From Octopus vulgaris (Eukaryota), in NCBI GenBank assembly GCA_951406725.2, contig OX597832.1, positions 2,604,001 through 2,668,000 of the forward strand: a DNA stretch of 64,000 nucleotides, in the 5' to 3' direction. The notes beneath the pieces were generated by a model. It was not told the origin of the DNA and ran no database searches. It worked only from the letters and a program-made list of their open reading frames with translations. Below are positions 20,430-62,183 of the stretch, one piece after another; the first letter of the stretch is position 1, and each line of letters begins with the position of its first letter. The position numbers and the translations under genes were made by a program.

Positions 20430-21202
20430 GTAAAATGATATGTGACAGTTATTCGGTAGCCAAGATAAAACTCTGAGCTTCAGATGCCGAGGTGGAAATC
20501 CACAACACCATCTCTTCGGGTGCAGGAGGGAGTAGGAGAAAGAGTATATAAGTGAGGGGAGAGGAGAGAAAATAGTAATTCAGTGAAGGAGAAGTAGTGA
20601 GAGTAATAGTCCTGACTGAGAGGGAGTGAGAGAAAGTAATAGCAATGAGAGAGAAGAAGTGGCAAAGAGCACATCATGTATCTTATGTTTTTCTCCGTCA
20701 CAACATATGAACGAGAAAGGAAGGAGTGATAGATGAATAATGAAAGAAGTGGGTGCTGGCAAACCCAGAGTGGGATGATGGAAGTTCTATAGTGAAAAAA
20801 AATCAAACAGCATTTCAACTCTGTGTGAGTATATATGTGTATGTGTACAAGAGAAGTATTTGAATGGTTGTATCTGTGATCATTATGTACCTTATTTTGG
20901 TACATAATAATTTTGGTATTTCCTTTAAAGATCTTAACTGGTGTAATATTTAGTTCTACATAATGATATTTTGTTTAATGTTTCTGTTCTTTGTAATATG
21001 ATTGTAATACTCTTTCATAAAACACTCTTCCATATATATTGTTGATTTTGTAGGTCCTTTTCGGTATGTGGATCTTCATGGAGCAAAGCAGTTAGTGGAC
21101 AGAATGTCTGTATTTGAAAGTCACTATGGAGAACACTTCGCTCCTTGTCAACTACTGAAGGATCATGCAAATGACAGCAGTAAATTATTTCATAAAAAGT
21201 GA
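2575..21202 (+). CDS. HADHA: Mitochondrial trifunctional enzyme subunit alpha, 3' part; join(2575-2745,4727-4862,6906-6992,8055-8142,11855-11976,13769-13964,16591-16702,18211-18301,19519-19573,21054-21202); 5' exons lie outside the window
   Basis: Spliced translation gives [111 protein letters not shown], collinear with the 3-hydroxyacyl-CoA dehydrogenase half of HADHA; all introns GT-AG, phases consistent. Confidence 0.97.
3225..4150 (+). mobile_element. Highly decayed CR1/L2/jockey-type LINE RT remnant
   Basis: Fragments translate to [23 protein letters not shown] and [10 protein letters not shown]; many stops and frameshifts. Confidence 0.55.
4727..4862 (+). CDS. HADHA: HADHA exon
   Basis: ttcag|T TTA GAA...GAA AAA|gtaaat; [18 protein letters not shown]. 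Confidence 0.95.
6378..6758. mobile_element. Foldback MITE with ~135-bp imperfect terminal inverted repeats
   Basis: Left arm aacataacatggcattcctgtaaaggacgatgttactgttgttttag... is the reverse complement of right arm ...ctaaaacaacagtaacatcgtcctttacaggactgccatgttatgtt. Confidence 0.85.
6906..6992 (+). CDS. HADHA: HADHA exon
   Basis: ttcag|TAT ATC CCA...GAA ATG|gtatgt; [21 protein letters not shown]. Confidence 0.95.
7460..7887 (+). mobile_element. RTE LINE 3' UTR copy
   Basis: Four ggtggcac modules, ggttggcgttaggaagggcatccagctg, (GAT)n tail. Confidence 0.88.
8055..8142 (+). CDS. HADHA: HADHA exon (catalytic His, GMHYFSP)
   Basis: aaag|GTA ATT GGA ATG CAC...ATA G|gtaaat. Confidence 0.95.
8230..8400 (-). 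repeat. Dispersed repeat, probable Penelope-like element terminal region
   Basis: Second copy at ~43962-44144; this copy lies 3' of the minus-strand GIY-YIG remnant at 9145-9375. Confidence 0.55.
9060..9700 (-). mobile_element. Penelope-like element fragment (GIY-YIG endonuclease plus part of RT)
   Basis: [13 protein letters not shown]...[16 protein letters not shown] is a GIY-YIG signature; 9417-9697 is an inverted copy of 10588-10844. Confidence 0.8.
9800..10980 (+). mobile_element. Penelope-like element reverse transcriptase remnant
   Basis: [40 protein letters not shown] and a QGAAI-like motif; stops and frameshifts. Confidence 0.85.
11000..11440 (-). mobile_element. Mariner transposon 5' fragment
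   Basis: [16 protein letters not shown]...[20 protein letters not shown] resembles the mariner N-terminal HTH region. Confidence 0.7.
11855..11976 (+). CDS. HADHA: HADHA exon
   Basis: ttag|CA CGT GCT...TTA CAG|gtaatt; [25 protein letters not shown]. Confidence 0.95.
12414..13305 (+). mobile_element. Internally deleted mariner element with TIRs
   Basis: Imperfect ~30-bp TIRs (tgaagtgacatcaaaatgttcccaaactagt / actagctggcgaactttttgataccacctca) flanked by TA; HNNAPCH and [12 protein letters not shown] motifs. Confidence 0.85.
13400..13713 (-). mobile_element. tRNA-derived SINE, family B (CORE-like cttgggcaagt)
   Basis: Reverse complement matches 50780-51065; same orientation as 53945-54349. 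Confidence 0.7.
13769..13964 (+). CDS. HADHA: HADHA exon
   Basis: ttcag|GAA GGA GTA...TTA G|gtaaat; [27 protein letters not shown]. Confidence 0.96.
14381..14625 (-). mobile_element. Diverged RTE-type 3' tail
   Basis: (CAT)n, ttccatgctagcatg, gatgcccttccaaatgccaacc. Confidence 0.7.
16591..16702 (+). CDS. HADHA: HADHA exon
   Basis: gcag|GT CGG AAG ACT GGT AAA...GTT GT|gtaagt; [11 protein letters not shown]. Confidence 0.94.
16752..16975 (+). mobile_element. tRNA-derived SINE, family A (Nin/Deu-like core)
   Basis: B-box gagttcaaattcc followed by actttgcccttcatc...gggtcaataaaataagtacc; other copies at 30715, 53490 and 56485. Confidence 0.75.
17213..17390 (+). mobile_element. SINE family B, diverged
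   Basis: catggctgagtgattaagaa...ggttcagt...gaccaaag, as in 50780-51065. Confidence 0.55.
18211..18301 (+). CDS. HADHA: HADHA exon
   Basis: ttcag|A AAT ACT...AAT CCT|gtaagt; [19 protein letters not shown]. Confidence 0.95.
18901..19050. repeat. Three identical tandem 50-bp units, each with an internal hairpin
   Basis: aacatatacactattgtgtatatgttacttttttggggacttcacctctg x3. Confidence 0.95.
19519..19573 (+). CDS. HADHA: HADHA exon
   Basis: aacag|CTA GAA GGA...GGC G|gtgagt; [18 protein letters not shown]. Confidence 0.95.
19754..19945. mobile_element. piggyBac-type MITE, nested in an older piggyBac-like repeat (~19630-20047)
   Basis: TTAA|ccctttgga...tcctaaggg|TTAA; flank 19975-20046 resembles the reverse complement of the left end of the element at 34345. 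Confidence 0.55.
21054..21202 (+). CDS. HADHA: HADHA last coding exon
   Basis: gtag|GT CCT TTT CGG...AAA AAG TGA; [11 protein letters not shown]...[21 protein letters not shown]. Confidence 0.96.
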
Positions 21203-25856: not shown

Positions 25857-26797
25857 TTAAACAACAGAACACACTTTATGAACTTCATAAAACACATTTT
25901 TGAAATCATACTTTCTAATACATTTTATGAAGGTCATAAAAGTATTACTGCTGTTGTAACGTCGCCAACAAAATTCATGCAAATATGTTGAAAACAAATT
26001 ATCGGACGTTCCATGCATCATCCGATAATTTGATTTCACGTGACTCCACATCCCTTCCACAGTGTTTGTGTGGATTGAGGCATTGTTGGGATACTGTGAC
26101 ACTGTAGTTCACAGTCAAATGGTTGGGTAGGCTATTATATTCTCTCCGGGAATCTGTGATAATCTTAGTTCCTGGCAAAACATGGCGGGTAATAATAGGC
26201 AGCAATGTTGCTGACTTCTGTTTTCCACAGGAACTAAGACACATCCCAGACTTTCCCGTTCAACCATTCCAAAAACCCAATGACCTTCTTGATAACTACC
26301 ACGATGATGTTTCCTGTGCATGAACATGGATTCGTCGATCTCTACAACATCTTCTCCAAGTTGCACAGGGTGGTCAAAACACCACATAGCACAAACATCG
26401 CTGAAGTAATTGTACCAGTTGACAATCGCCTCTGATCCAATTCCAACTTCACTCATCACAACACTCTGTTTACATTCAATTTTTGCCCAGTAATACATCG
26501 ACTGAAGGAGACGAGTCAATGGTAGGTGTGAACCCGAGAAAAACGAGTCTTGCCTAATGCTACGAAATTGCCTGCCAACAGTACACCTCCACATTTTCCC
26601 ATCGGATACTGTATTGCGTGATGCAAGGTACATCCACTCATTACAATTGTGGATCAATTTCACAGATGCCAGGAGTTGGTTTGTTGAATCTGCGTTACTC
26701 GTTATGACAATAATGTCTCGCAGATTGTGAGATCTTTGAGTTATGTCATCATCGGAAAGGACAGATTCAATAATCCTATATCGTCCAGCCCAGCCAT
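25857..26797 (-). mobile_element. Merlin (IS1016/IS1595-like) transposase pseudogene
   Basis: VVEIDES...HWVFGMVER, TLLPIITRHVLPGTKIITD, HTNTVEGMWS...YLHEFCWR spread over three frames. Confidence 0.88.
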
Positions 26798-27899
26798 AGG
26801 GGAATCTAATGGAAGAGTATATGATGTAATTGTCTTAACAGGAATTGAGAAAATGTACAGGAGAGTCTGTTGCCAGATATGTATGTGTGCTTGTGTGTCT
26901 GTGTATGTATGTGTGTGCTTGTGAATCTGTGTTTGTGTGTACAGGCGTGTGTGTGTGCAAAATTTTGTCTGTGTTTGTGTCTGTGTTTGTGTCTGTGTGT
27001 GTGGGTGTGAGTCTGTTTATGTGTACAGGCGTGTGTGCGCAAAACGAAGATAAAATGAAAGATTTTAAGTTCCAAATGTCTCTGCATCCAAGAATTACAG
27101 GCCTGTATTTATATAATACATTTCAAAACAAATAATATAAACGAAACAAAAAAATTAATAAAAACGTATCTATGAATCTGATCATAAAATCGCCAACAAA
27201 CATAAAACAAATAAACCGAGAGAAAGAAAAAGTTAGCAACAGGAACAAAATTGTATCACTCACACACACGGACGGAACACCAACTTCTAAAGAACTTCCC
27301 CGACCCAATCGCGCGCTCTCTGTCTCGCTTTTTGAAAAATACCCCCCCCCCCCCCACATATATATTAAAATTTTTTTTACGGAAAGTGACGATCTTCTTC
27401 ATATGTAAACAAAAGCACGTGCTCCAGTTTGACAGTAACGGTACTTATACCGTAATTTAGCCTAAAAGAATATGTTACATAAATAAATAAATGATTTATT
27501 TCGATCTTGTTATGTCATTGAAAAAAGTCAAACTAATTCTTCTCTAAACAAAGCGATATTGAAATTCAATCGGGGAAAAATCTTAGGAAAGACATTACAA
27601 GCCGGCATAAAAAAAAAAATTTCGTCAGCTGCCAAACAAACAGATAATAAATTCGAAAAAGAAACGTGTTAATAAAATCCATCGAAAATGAACTCTCCCG
27701 AAGAACCTGAAGGCATGAAAAGGAGTTGATCCACACTGAACGCTAAAATGATTTTAAAATAGCGCTATCGTTTTTCAAAATTTCTCACAGTAGTCAAAAG
27801 GATAATCGCTAACAAAAAGCTAATTATATTCTTATCTGAATCCTTGAAGTTTTCTAACTATTCACCTTTAATATTTATAATATTAAGGGTTTTAGTACA

Positions 27900-29582
27900 A
27901 TGGATCGGAATAAGCTTCAATCTCAGATTTCTTTTCTTCAAGATGTAACTTTATCCCTTCAGTTCTTACTTCCGTTCATCGGACTGAGTACTTTACGCGA
28001 TTGGGAAATCTTGTCCCTTTTCGGATGCCGTAAATCCAATGTTCCGTTAATCCCAGACTCGGAAAATGTACGCCTCGCACAATTTCCTTTATTTCCGTGC
28101 CGAGAGATGTGCAAAAATATTGAATATGTGGATAATCTTTTAAAAGATATTCAGACTTGCTTAAAGCAAACGATTATTTGGGCAGCAATTTTTGTTCTTA
28201 TGTGTTCTATATATTGCTATCTGAGCAAGATTTGTAAATTAGAAAAGCGAGTAAACTTATTGAACATCTGGTTAAAGACATCAACGACTGGCTTCTGCTT
28301 ACAAGTATTTTATTATAGATATAGTTTTAAATCATTTCTAAAGTTTGTCAGTTTTGTATCTCGTTCTCTTTTGTTATTCGGCAAATGGACAAAATCAGTT
28401 ATTGGTGGGCAACTGTACAACGATATTATTGATTACATCCCTATGATTATTGATAAAGTTATTGTCTTGATTGCAATATTAATAACCACAGCAACTTTAG
28501 TGTTATTAAAAAATGTATGGAAAAGAAGGCAAGTACGGTGGAAAAGATCAATTCGCAAAAATTCGATGAAAGCTGAAACCAAAAATATTTCCCTCTTCGA
28601 TATTTCGGCTGCCTCGTTAGACTGTGATGTTTTAAATTTAAAGAATCAAATGATATTAGCAGGTCAGCGACAGAGTTCGGTAAATTCAAAAGGACAACCG
28701 AAATTATTGGCAAATATATTTGCGACAGTATTTATGGATTTCATTTACAGTCAAGTAATGTTATTGTGTAGAAGTGTGGCCCGAAAACATGATCTTAACG
28801 ACAGTGAATCTATGCTTTTACGCTGGACGTGTTTCAGTATCACAAATACTTTGTATGAAGCTAAGGGAAATCTTTCTCAAAGTAGTCACAAGATCGATAC
28901 TCTTTTGAAACTTGGATCAATGCTAAACTGCAATAGTAAAACGTTTAGATTGTTGGGAAATTCGAAGGGGATAAATTCGGTGGATGTTGGTGAACAGGAC
29001 ATCTTTTTTAATATTTTCTTTGAAGAAGACCACATCATATTGAGAAGCAAAGTATTTGATATTCCTTCAATCACTTGCTCTGACGACCGTCTAACACTGA
29101 ATCATTCGCGTCATTTCCCACTTCCACAGCGATTACAAAGACGACTAACAGATTATAAAGTAATGTCATTTTATGGCTCTGCACAAAGAATTAATGAAGC
29201 AATAAAAGACTTTGAAAAGAAAGCAGTTCAGTTTCTCAAGGGTCCTTTTATAATCGAGGATAAACCAAACAAACGGTCTGAGCTACAAAAGATCACTATA
29301 ACTAAATTCAGTGAAGTAGCTACTTTATTGAAACGTCCATTAGCACAGAACAACACTGAAAACATTTTGGAATGGAAACCTGTTCAAGCTGATGTAAAAG
29401 AAAGTTTTCTGCAAAATAGGAATAGCAAACACTTGTTAAACAACATTACCTACCTTCTTCAAGGTGAGCGCGAAAGAGAAAGCAGAAAACAAGTTTCTCG
29501 AGTTAATCTGAAGAAAAAACCTGACTTTAGGGAGTCTTTCTCCGATTTAAGAGCAAAAATTGAGCACATGAGAAATAAGTAA
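27900..29582 (+). CDS. Uncharacterised intronless 560-aa protein, predicted membrane-anchored
   Basis: 1683-bp stop-free ORF in AT-rich DNA with complex sequence; hydrophobic segments at aa ~91-108 and ~187-203, the second followed by KNVWKRRQVRWKRSIRK; no TE motif recognised. Confidence 0.75.
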   Translation: MDRNKLQSQISFLQDVTLSLQFLLPFIGLSTLRDWEILSLFGCRKSNVPLIPDSENVRLAQFPLFPCREMCKNIEYVDNLLKDIQTCLKQTIIWAAIFVLMCSIYCYLSKICKLEKRVNLLNIWLKTSTTGFCLQVFYYRYSFKSFLKFVSFVSRSLLLFGKWTKSVIGGQLYNDIIDYIPMIIDKVIVLIAILITTATLVLLKNVWKRRQVRWKRSIRKNSMKAETKNISLFDISAASLDCDVLNLKNQMILAGQRQSSVNSKGQPKLLANIFATVFMDFIYSQVMLLCRSVARKHDLNDSESMLLRWTCFSITNTLYEAKGNLSQSSHKIDTLLKLGSMLNCNSKTFRLLGNSKGINSVDVGEQDIFFNIFFEEDHIILRSKVFDIPSITCSDDRLTLNHSRHFPLPQRLQRRLTDYKVMSFYGSAQRINEAIKDFEKKAVQFLKGPFIIEDKPNKRSELQKITITKFSEVATLLKRPLAQNNTENILEWKPVQADVKESFLQNRNSKHLLNNITYLLQGERERESRKQVSRVNLKKKPDFRESFSDLRAKIEHMRNK

Positions 29583-30307
29583 TTGAATATTTTTGTTGGA
29601 TAGTAAATTAATTGTAACTACACGGATCATTTCTTATTCATTGTCTTTGTAGTAGCTGTTGTATAGGTCCAAATAATTAAGATTATTGTTTGAAATGAGG
29701 ATGGAGTAAAGCAAAACGTTTTCGAGAAAGATTTTATTTTTGATTTACTTTACATCACATTATATTTGGGGTTATGGATATTGCAGCTATTTCTATGTGT
29801 AAGCTTTTGTCTTGGCTTGAGTCGAAGTATATGTGGTTTTGTAAATGTTTTCTGATGTTTTGGATGTGTAGTTGTAGAAACTAAGCCTGGGGTTGCTGCA
29901 GCCACAAATTGTACTTTTCACATACCCAGGTGGTTTTTGAGTTTTAGTATTATTTTGTTGTCTTAGGGAGGCTGTGTACAACTGTAATGATTCAAAGTGT
30001 GCTGTTGTGCGGTTTTTGTTTGTTGTCAAAAAATTTTGTATACCCCAAATTGACAACGCCAGTTCATGCTGAAATATGCAAATATGAATGTCCTGGGTCA
30101 CAAAAATTACATTTTTTTGTGAATATTCTAGGTCCTTGTAGAACATAGTTATACAATTTGTTGTTTACATACATAGCTATAAAAATATATTAAATTTATC
30201 AAGATAAACATGTTGCAAAAATAAGTACTTTTGTGAACTGTGTTCCAAATAACCTTGCCTTTTAAATGGATTTAAAACTGTGTGAGCAAAGGAAAGAACC
30301 TCTACAT

Positions 30308-30540
30308 CAGTAGTTCCCAAACTTTTTTCAGGCCATATTCCTAGCACACCACCCACACAACGTAAATATATAGACCACTTTCTGCAGCAAATTCAAAACA
30401 ACTGTATTTCACAAATAAAACTTAAACCTAATTTACCTATTAATATTTTTTTACATCTATTACCCCATTATCATCCCACTTTTCTTCAACGCCCCACTGG
30501 ATCTATCTACCACCCCCAAGGAGGCAGTACTGCTCTACAT
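30308..30540. mobile_element. Possible hAT/Charlie-like MITE remnant
   Basis: Starts cagtagttcccaaactttt, similar to hAT-Charlie TIRs; second TIR not found. Confidence 0.3.
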
Positions 30541-31148: not shown

Positions 31149-31801
31149 TATCTATGTATAATTTGATATACATTAATATAACATGTAATCATCTTCATTA
31201 ACACCGCCACTGAATTTAGGACATTTATATTACTTAAGAGGTTTCTATATTTTTCAGCTAGAGTGTAGTTGGGTCTCAAGGGGGTGGTACAAACCCAGCA
31301 GTATGTGTTTTATAGTGATAGTGAGAACAAAATTTCTATTCAAATGGCAATTACCCAACAAGTTTCTGTTCAAGTCTAACCATTTTAAGTCGTGGAAATG
31401 CAACCTATGTCGCAACCAGGCAGACGAATATTGTATAGATTTTATAATTGAAAAATTTACTCCAAGTATATCAGCCTGTGGGCAAAATAAAATGGGCTTG
31501 CGTGCGGGGATTTCCCTACCCCTGACCAAGACCTTTTGTAGGAAATATGTAGCTGAGGAGGATTGAAATACAGCAGAGATGAAAATAGAATCATATCGAA
31601 TAGTGTATGCTTGAGGTGTATAGTTAGAGTATTCATAGGAGCAGTTACTATTGTAGAAAGAGAGAATAAAGCTGATGTATTTTCATGTTTTCAAGAAAAT
31701 TCCTAGAATTAGTGATGCAGTCATAGGATGGTTTTATAAGATTTTCATGGTGTTGGAGTATTTTCTTGATGTGGTGGTTGTGTTTTGTTACTGCTGAATA
31801 T

Positions 31802-31893
31802 AATGTTACATTTAATTGTTCATTGTGTTTGATTCCTTTTTGCTTTTGCTTCCAGCGTTCAGCACATTTCTTCCTCTTGAGTTTGGTATTTGA
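31802..31893 (-). pseudogene. 92-bp duplicated fragment of the KRI1 last exon
   Basis: Matches 33481-33572 with 4 mismatches. Confidence 0.85.
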
Positions 31894-32324
31894 AAGGTAC
31901 CCTAATTGCTAAAAAGCATTTCAGATATGATTATCCTGTCTTTTTGTTTTTAGGATTAGACTGGATTGCATTATCTAATGTTTCCTGTTCTTATATAAGA
32001 TTTTGATTACCATTTCTAGCAAGTGAAATGGCTACTAAGGGCTTTAACTGATATACAGGACTTTGTCAGTTGCAAATGGAAATCGAAACCAGATATTGAG
32101 TGTTACAATCTTGTCTCTTTCAACAGCAAGAAAACACAAATGCTACTCATATCAAACATCAGACCCTTCCACTTTAATCATGAGCAGCATGCAACTATGA
32201 CCATCACAATTGCTTCAAATGCTGGGTCTCACTATAACTGGAGATCTCTCTTGGCAAAAGTACATCCTTAACATAGCTGGAACCACCAGGGAAAACTTTC
32301 ACATTTGGGATGGTGTCACTGTTG

Positions 32325-33404: not shown

Positions 33405-62183
<28,779 letters not shown>

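What the first reader, a model, noticed from the sequence alone, without database searches (positions are those of the whole stretch)
27900..29582. Intact intronless 560-aa orphan membrane protein between HADHA and KRI1
Seen: by far the longest ORF in the window, stop-free over 1.68 kb of AT-rich DNA where every TE ORF is broken. It is non-repetitive, has two clear hydrophobic helices (aa ~91-108, ~187-203), a polybasic stretch after the second, a ~350-aa C-terminal region and a charged helical tail. A ttttag acceptor-like site ends 4 nt before the ATG, so a 5' UTR intron is possible. I recognise no transposase, RT, viral or cellular domain. Inference: a lineage-restricted gene under selection (retrogene, de novo or fast-evolving, e.g. 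reproductive or sensory), or a recently captured foreign ORF.
Basis: partly seen in the sequence, partly recalled or inferred. Interest (0 to 1): 0.75.

Follow-up and report, generated by a model that had tools for sequence, protein, structure and literature searches.

The report
Octopus-cuttlefish orphan membrane protein gene
Octopuses and cuttlefish share a single-copy, transcribed gene under purifying selection whose protein matched no known family in our searches and is predicted to sit in a membrane, where it likely acts as an anchor that holds a partner molecule through a conserved helical domain.

Summary
The ORF is real and is a gene: 560 codons without a stop (chance about 1e-19), one copy in this octopus genome, covered unspliced by transcript contigs in runs that splice the neighbouring KRI1, and under purifying selection against a close octopus relative (dN/dS about 0.4; 0.14 in aa 261-460; 1 in-frame indel in the CDS against at least 11 indels in the 3'UTR). 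It is not an octopus orphan: cuttlefish has a 33%-identical, probably orthologous protein (E 5e-49), which puts the family at about 275 million years or older. That rules out a recently captured ORF and a young de novo gene. The proposed 5'UTR acceptor is not used in the contigs seen. No family, viral or structural match was found. Resemblances seen by eye to FMR1/KH, cGAS/Mab-21 and STING were tested and stayed at or near chance. Best reading: a fast-evolving multi-pass membrane protein with a conserved cytosolic helical domain, likely a non-enzymatic membrane anchor. Its decay rate alone would hide relatives older than about 515 million years, so an old gene diverged beyond recognition is likelier than de novo birth.

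The parts
27900..29582 (+). Single-exon CDS, 560 aa (P0001)
   Evidence: one match in own genome with P0001 and with the cuttlefish protein
27427..27899 (+). Transcribed upstream region (putative 5'UTR, unspliced in run X16; six short upstream ORFs of 4-18 codons); true 5' end not known
29583..30425 (+). Putative 3'UTR; AATAAA at 30414-30419; contig of X17 stops aligning at 30425, contig of X4 at 30282
27927..27983 (+). Hydrophobic segment aa 10-28 (weak in octopus, stronger in cuttlefish); possible first membrane helix
   Evidence: inference
28170..28226 (+). Predicted membrane helix aa 91-109, hydrophobic in both lineages and followed by K/R
28266..28319 (+). aa ~123-140: strongest hydrophobic segment in cuttlefish, marginal in octopus; possible membrane helix
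   Evidence: inference
28455..28511 (+). Predicted membrane helix aa 186-204 (strong in octopus, weaker in cuttlefish)
28512..28583 (+). Polybasic stretch aa 205-228, start of a fast-changing linker (8 of 60 positions invariant in aa 206-265)
28695..29264 (+). Conserved soluble core aa 266-455: helices at ~266-296, ~301-341 and ~428-446 around a poorly modelled strand-rich insert; dN/dS 0.14
29265..29579 (+). Charged tail aa 456-560; the last ~85 aa are absent in the cuttlefish proteins
27050..27470 (.). End of an interspersed repeat (51 further matches among 40 of 252 candidates scored); it overlaps the 5' end of the transcript contig; 27475-27900 is unique

Best explanation
This is a single-copy, transcribed, selected gene shared by octopus and cuttlefish whose protein is predicted to be held in a membrane by two to four N-terminal helices and likely works as a non-enzymatic anchor that binds a partner through a conserved helical domain on the cytosolic side. 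Shown: intact frame, single copy, unspliced transcript contigs, purifying selection concentrated in aa 261-460, a 33%-identical cuttlefish relative. Inferred: membrane insertion (about 0.85), C-terminal domain facing the cytosol (about 0.65, positive-inside rule), adaptor rather than enzyme (about 0.6), descent from an older gene that has diverged beyond detection, possibly as a retrocopy (about 0.65). The partner is not identified; the net basic charge (pI 9.6-9.9) allows RNA or acidic lipids or proteins.
For: Orthologue-like proteins at 93% and 90%, 32-33% (E 5.4e-49; named Sepia pharaonis) and a second decapodiform-like one 86% identical to that. dN/dS 0.41 (40 non-synonymous of 1331 sites, 25 synonymous of 349; p 0.0009) and 0.14 in aa 261-460 (p 0.0004). 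1 in-frame indel in 1683 nt of CDS against at least 11 in 700 nt of 3'UTR (p 1e-5). Transcript contigs over the CDS in X16, X4, X6 and X17; X4 and X17 also hold 2.1-kb KRI1 contigs that stop aligning at or within 6 nt of its splice acceptor. Hydrophobic segments with K/R on the inferred cytosolic side in both lineages. Invariant positions cluster in aa 1-110 (32 of 110), 266-345 (32 of 80) and 401-455 (22 of 55) and are led by Leu, Lys and Ser, with no catalytic motif that I recognise. The confident parts of the core model are helices. Exponential decay of the score predicts loss of detection at about 515 million years.
Against: Function is not shown by any search. The structure models are weak (full length pLDDT 33; core 50.5, and 36-40 in the other four models). 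The strongest membrane helices differ between lineages, so topology is uncertain. An N-x-S sequon at aa 300 and two cysteines (290, 311) are invariant, which would fit a lumenal domain. The same decay model predicts about 69 bits at 415 million years, so a Nautilus relative should have been detectable, and none was returned (I do not know whether the library holds Nautilus proteins). dN/dS outside the core is not significantly below 1.
Confidence: 0.5

Rival explanations
1. A very old FMR1/FXR (KH-domain) retrocopy that lost its RNA-binding loops, gained membrane helices in place of the Agenet domains, and would tether FMR1 granules or RNA to a membrane.
For: Cuttlefish P0006 aa 424-476 aligns with octopus FMR1 at score 63 against shuffles 32 +/- 4.6 (0 of 500 reach it, both matrices). 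Octopus aa ~300-385 is the best local match to FMR1 KH0-end/KH1 in several pairs (best 5 of 500). A KH profile picks aa 421-436 and a KH-like Pfam scores E 0.11 there. FMR1 does retropose in this genome.
Against: The two registers conflict and no internal repeat explains them (92-352 of 500 shuffles reach the score). Only 2 of 24 pair tests reached 0 of 500, both the same pair; the cuttlefish match is not reproduced with two other FMR1 proteins. FMR1 profile: hmmsearch E above 0.1, hhalign probability 0.17%, profile alignment reached by 23 of 200 shuffles. KH profile score 12.0, below the best shuffles (14.6). The core profile finds no FMRP chain at E up to 10 in the PDB, where unrelated gp120 chains score E 0.1 by chance. 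The candidate was chosen by eye after the fact.
Confidence: 0.12
2. A cell-surface or secretory-pathway protein whose conserved domain faces the lumen or outside, glycosylated at aa 300 and disulfide-bonded, acting as a receptor or adhesion protein (for example in gametes).
For: Invariant sequon at aa 300, a second sequon near aa 324 in all 5 proteins checked, 7 invariant cysteines; only three clear hydrophobic segments in cuttlefish on one scale.
Against: A polybasic run directly follows the last hydrophobic segment in both lineages; the core is predicted helical and basic; the aa 300 motif also fits a helix N-cap in the model (inference).
Confidence: 0.2
3. A gene born de novo, or domesticated from a virus or transposon, in the coleoid stem lineage.
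For: No relative outside coleoids among 1.84 billion representatives (2 hits); no introns in the CDS; no Nautilus hit although one is predicted to be detectable; top structural rows are archaeal virus coat proteins (Z 7.3, rmsd 4.5, 106 aligned).
Against: Non-detection beyond about 515 million years is expected from the decay rate alone. No relative in viral contigs, metagenomes, prokaryote genomes, phage records or PHROGs. Z 7.3 is within noise for helical bundles. Single copy.
Confidence: 0.15
4. A diverged STING-like or catalytically dead cGAS/Mab-21-like membrane sensor.
For: Several N-terminal membrane helices followed by a cytosolic domain; no canonical STING domain found in this genome (which had no positive control). 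The motif resemblances are recalled.
Against: No Pfam or PDB sequence match at E up to 10; the acidic residue that suggested a nucleotidyltransferase is not kept in cuttlefish; only one Mab-21 match in the genome, elsewhere.
Confidence: 0.03

Closest known systems
Uncharacterised proteins A0A0L8FHY1 (Octopus bimaculoides) and CAE1297779.1 / A0A812DBL6 (Sepia pharaonis)
   Same: Same family: 93% and 33% identical, colinear over the membrane region and core.
   Different: Database entries without name or function; the cuttlefish form lacks the last ~85 aa. A full-text search for the three accessions found 0 papers.
Cephalopod-restricted genes as a class (1597 Doryteuthis genes with similarity only to cephalopod genes; PMC9068888, passages)
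   Same: Detectable only in coleoids.
   Different: Single-copy and non-repetitive, unlike the arrayed reflectins and suckerins named there; whether the paper's supplementary table lists it was not checked.
FMR1/FXR KH0-KH1-KH2 proteins (PF17904, PF00013; PDB 2QND, 4OVA)
   Same: Two short patches of weak similarity.
   Different: No GXXG loops, no Agenet or RGG region, has membrane helices; profile tests at chance.
STING (TMEM173) and membrane-anchored Mab-21-fold proteins (ITPRIP, MiD49/51); recalled
   Same: General layout only: membrane helices first, soluble domain after.
   Different: No sequence match; no such row among the top 50 structural matches of a weak model.

Membership tests
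FMR1/FXR family | Sequence or profile match to KH0-KH1-KH2 | tested here: inconclusive
   One pair far above shuffles (0 of 500), not reproduced; profile tests at chance
FMR1/FXR family | GXXG loop in KH1 and KH2 | tested here: not met
   No GXXG at either candidate register in any of 7 aligned proteins
FMR1/FXR family | N-terminal Agenet/Tudor domains | tested here: not met
   Agenet found in true octopus FMR1, none in aa 1-217, which is hydrophobic and helical
KH domain proteins (type I) | Three-stranded sheet with three helices | tested here: inconclusive
   Core model pLDDT 50; strand region under 50
cGAS/Mab-21 nucleotidyltransferase fold | G-S motif followed by two catalytic acidic residues | tested here: not met
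   Candidate stretch aa ~312-338 lacks the motif and is not conserved as such in cuttlefish; modelled as helix. Motif definition recalled.
STING (TMEM173) | Match to the ligand-binding domain PF15009 or its fold | tested here: inconclusive
   No hit at E up to 10; weak model; no STING sequence was on hand for a profile-profile test
STING (TMEM173) | Binds cyclic dinucleotides as a dimer | not testable with these tools
   Needs a binding assay
Transposon or viral ORF | Multiple genomic copies or a transposase, RT or viral domain | tested here: not met
   One match among 23 candidates scored; no Pfam, PHROG, viral-contig or phage match
Retrogene | Intronless coding sequence | tested here: met
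   Single 1683-nt frame; colinear transcript contigs
Retrogene | An intron-containing parent gene | tested here: inconclusive
   No paralogue at E up to 0.001 or 1; an old parent could be undetectable
De novo gene | Non-coding orthologous DNA in outgroups | not testable with these tools
   No other animal genome could be searched
Taxonomically restricted gene | Homologues detected only within one clade | tested here: met
   2 hits among 1.84 billion representatives, both in clusters or lineages tied to coleoids; three word-based searches limited to 0.55-1.75 times the query length

The most novel reading that the evidence does not exclude
The gene is an ancient FMR1 retrocopy remodelled in the coleoid ancestor into a membrane protein: a KH-derived domain without RNA-binding loops that docks FMR1/FXR granules, or RNA, onto an organelle membrane, a cephalopod invention in RNA localisation.
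Probability: 0.1. Interest if true: 0.7.

Novelty: new member of a known kind. Interest (0 to 1): 0.28.

Why it matters
It turns an anonymous ORF into a validated, expressed, coleoid-wide protein family with a defined conserved domain that no library searched could name, a fair target for structure determination or knockout in squid. It is one of many such cephalopod-restricted genes (1597 in one squid, PMC9068888), so by itself it is not surprising. It would matter more if the weak FMR1 link held, or if a richer alignment showed a new fold.

Tried and rejected
Family and sequence searches without a significant hit: Pfam on whole proteins, parts and alignments, NCBIfam, PHROGs (best E 0.034 in 1 of 7), PDB sequences, ESM Atlas by features (7, 24) and by a pLDDT 0.36 model (TM 0.27 or less by query; 24), viral contigs (55), metagenomes (56), prokaryote genomes (111), phage records (130). 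The alignment-based protein search (25) missed even the cuttlefish proteins, so it is insensitive. Structure: full-length model pLDDT 33 (49), never searched; core model against PDB by Foldseek, best E 0.93 (116); by VIA-align, best Z 7.3, none of 48161 chains at Z 8 or more, and no KH, Mab-21 or STING entry among the 50 rows shown (105), which excludes nothing; the viral structure library could not be run. Homodimer prediction of aa 261-460: no answer, score 0.00, alignment not used (125); no evidence either way. No holder was on record as RNA in the run list (14); RNA status is inferred from KRI1 splicing and run size. X17 has no cover at 31510-32064 (40), a weak control only. The unaligned 5' piece of the X4 contig has no match in the window (78). 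A guessed minus-strand exon near 27260 lies inside a repeat (75) and was dropped. Internal repeat: none (94). Literature searches: accessions, 0 papers (37); HADHA + KRI1 + octopus, 0 (128); orphan/coleoid/single-exon terms, 0 (80); listings showed no title on this gene. Earlier scan notes: none by sequence (47); 8 shown of 20 by words, none on this gene (120).

Full report
1. Observation. The frame 27900-29582 (+) gives 560 residues and a stop. It is the longest of 30 stop-to-stop frames of 120 aa or more in the window, 574 against 262. At GC 0.348 such a run has a chance of 1.5e-19, and the other five frames carry 23-46 stops. It lies between a fatty-acid oxidation gene that ends at 21202 (3HCDH exon; the name HADHA is recalled) and KRI1 on the minus strand (Kri1 Pfam; last exon 33405-33921 by reading). 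The genome is an octopus genome of 2.8 Gb (nearest named protein from O. bimaculoides).

2. It is a gene. The protein matches once in the genome (23 candidates scored), also when the cuttlefish protein is the query (7 scored, E up to 1). 20 of 24 listed runs hold the stretch or part of it, 8 of them half or more of its words; none is on record as RNA. I laid 6 of the 24. X16 has one contig over 27427-29325 and a second from 29296 on; X6 covers 27776-29580; X4 covers 27866-30282; X1 gives five short pieces. X17 covers to 30425, next to an AATAAA at 30414. X4 and X17 also hold 2.1-kb KRI1 contigs that align only to the last exon and stop at 33917 and 33923, at the acceptor, so these runs are RNA by inference. 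X15 is of genome size and was laid as a DNA control. Contigs give no tissue, strand, level or true 5' end; the X17 contig has 1419 letters upstream of 28550 and may start inside the repeat that ends near 27470.

3. Selection. The contig of X4 encodes the P0002 residue at 558 of 560 positions. From the 65 substitutions listed in the CDS: 40 non-synonymous of 1331 sites, 25 synonymous of 349, dN/dS 0.41, Fisher p 0.0009. By region: aa 1-206, 0.53 (p 0.15); aa 207-260, 1.87 (p 1.0); aa 261-460, 0.14 (p 0.0004); aa 461-560, 0.40 (p 0.10). The tables were cut to the best-supported rows; two amino-acid differences near the edge of the second stretch (aa 219, 225) were probably filtered out, which would raise the overall ratio slightly. 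The CDS has one in-frame 3-nt indel, the first 700 nt of the 3'UTR at least 11 (p 1e-5).

4. Age and spread. Near relatives: 93% (O. bimaculoides A0A0L8FHY1), 90% (a Logan contig) and a shorter identical entry. phmmer over 1.84 billion representatives gave 2 hits, one a 478-aa protein at 32% identity over aa 20-454, E 5.4e-49, whose cluster holds Sepia pharaonis CAE1297779.1. A further protein is 86% identical to that one. Orthology rests on single copy and full-length colinearity; synteny was not checked. Octopus and decapodiforms split about 275 million years ago (PMC9068888, passages). A recent capture or young de novo origin is therefore excluded. An exponential fit through two points (1247 bits self, 184 bits at 275 million years) reaches the detection limit of 34 bits at about 515 million years. 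So missing gastropod or bivalve hits are expected even for an old gene. The fit predicts about 69 bits at 415 million years, near the Nautilus split (415-423 Ma, PMC8257504, passages), and no such hit was seen; this is the main point for a coleoid-stem origin, weakened by not knowing whether Nautilus is in the library and by the crudeness of the fit. Divergence beyond recognition as a source of orphans is described in PMC12904771 (abstract and outline only).

5. Anatomy. Hydrophobic segments: aa 91-109 and 186-204 are strong in octopus; in cuttlefish the equivalents of aa 10-28, 91-109 and ~123-140 are strong and the last is weaker. K/R follow aa 91-109 and aa 186-204 in both lineages, which is self-consistent with four passes and a cytosolic C-terminus (inference). 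125 positions are invariant in 7 sequences, in three blocks: aa 1-110, 266-345, 401-455. The core model (aa 261-480, 5 sequences) has pLDDT 50.5, with 70-82 in helices near aa 281-310 and 431-440 and under 50 in the strand-rich middle. The full-length model is unusable (pLDDT 33).

6. Leads tested. (a) Nucleotidyltransferase: dropped, motif not conserved. (b) Generic KH: a profile of 22 of the 39 octopus KH matches scores 12.0 against the core, below the best of 100 shuffles (14.6). (c) FMR1: I fetched the octopus gene and its retrocopy (identity confirmed) and 17 metagenome loci. Profile tests were at chance: hmmsearch E above 0.1, hhalign 0.17%, 23 of 200 shuffles. Among 24 pairwise tests, cuttlefish P0006 against octopus FMR1 stood out (63 against 32 +/- 4.6; 0 of 500 shuffles with both matrices), P0009 gave 8 and 20 of 500, P0003 against another FMR1 15 and 5 of 500, the other 18 were not significant. 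The registers conflict and there is no internal repeat. I keep this at about 0.1. (d) STING: no hit; the genome search found no STING domain but lacked a positive control; absence of STING is reported for Aplysia (PMC9334734, passages). (e) Virus or transposon: no match in five collections.

7. Mechanism. The most economical reading is a membrane-anchored adaptor: a membrane region that tolerates change, a fast-changing basic linker, and a helical core that carries most of the constraint without a recognisable active site. The gene-level claims are shown; membrane insertion, orientation and the adaptor role are inferred, and no call tested function. The main rival on anatomy is a lumenal core with an invariant sequon at aa 300 and cysteines 290 and 311.

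8. Novelty. No description in print was found by the searches (open-access full text only; supplements were not read, and tables of cephalopod-specific genes such as Supplementary Table 4 of PMC9068888 may list it). It is an undescribed family within a well-known class, cephalopod-restricted genes. Interest 0.28.

Noticed in passing
L036:1920-3863 (+) = G000:C4:98494419-98496362: Intact 647-aa intronless FMR1/FXR retrocopy, 98-100% identical to nine exons of a multi-exon parent on C19 (53.24-53.26 Mb); one Agenet domain, KH0-KH2 kept, two Gly/Asp changes in KH2 relative to the parent exons. Very young; expression not checked.
   Followed up: partly
window 31802-31893: 92-bp, 96%-identical copy of part of the KRI1 last exon (33481-33572) about 1.7 kb downstream of KRI1.
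   Followed up: partly
window 26115-27470: Decayed DNA-transposon-like element (239-aa minus-strand frame, ISXO2/Merlin-like by recall, no Pfam hit) whose end overlaps the 5' end of the gene's transcript contigs; it may supply or merely abut the promoter.
   Followed up: partly
G000 whole genome: No STING ligand-binding domain and only one Mab-21 match were found, which hints at loss of cGAS-STING signalling in octopus; the STING search had no positive control and genes match exon by exon.
   Followed up: partly
window 34643-35062 (-): PiggyBac-type transposase fragment (PF13843, E 1e-8) in the last KRI1 intron.
   Followed up: no
window 27472-27760: Six short upstream ORFs (4-18 codons) in the putative 5'UTR; may damp translation.
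   Followed up: no
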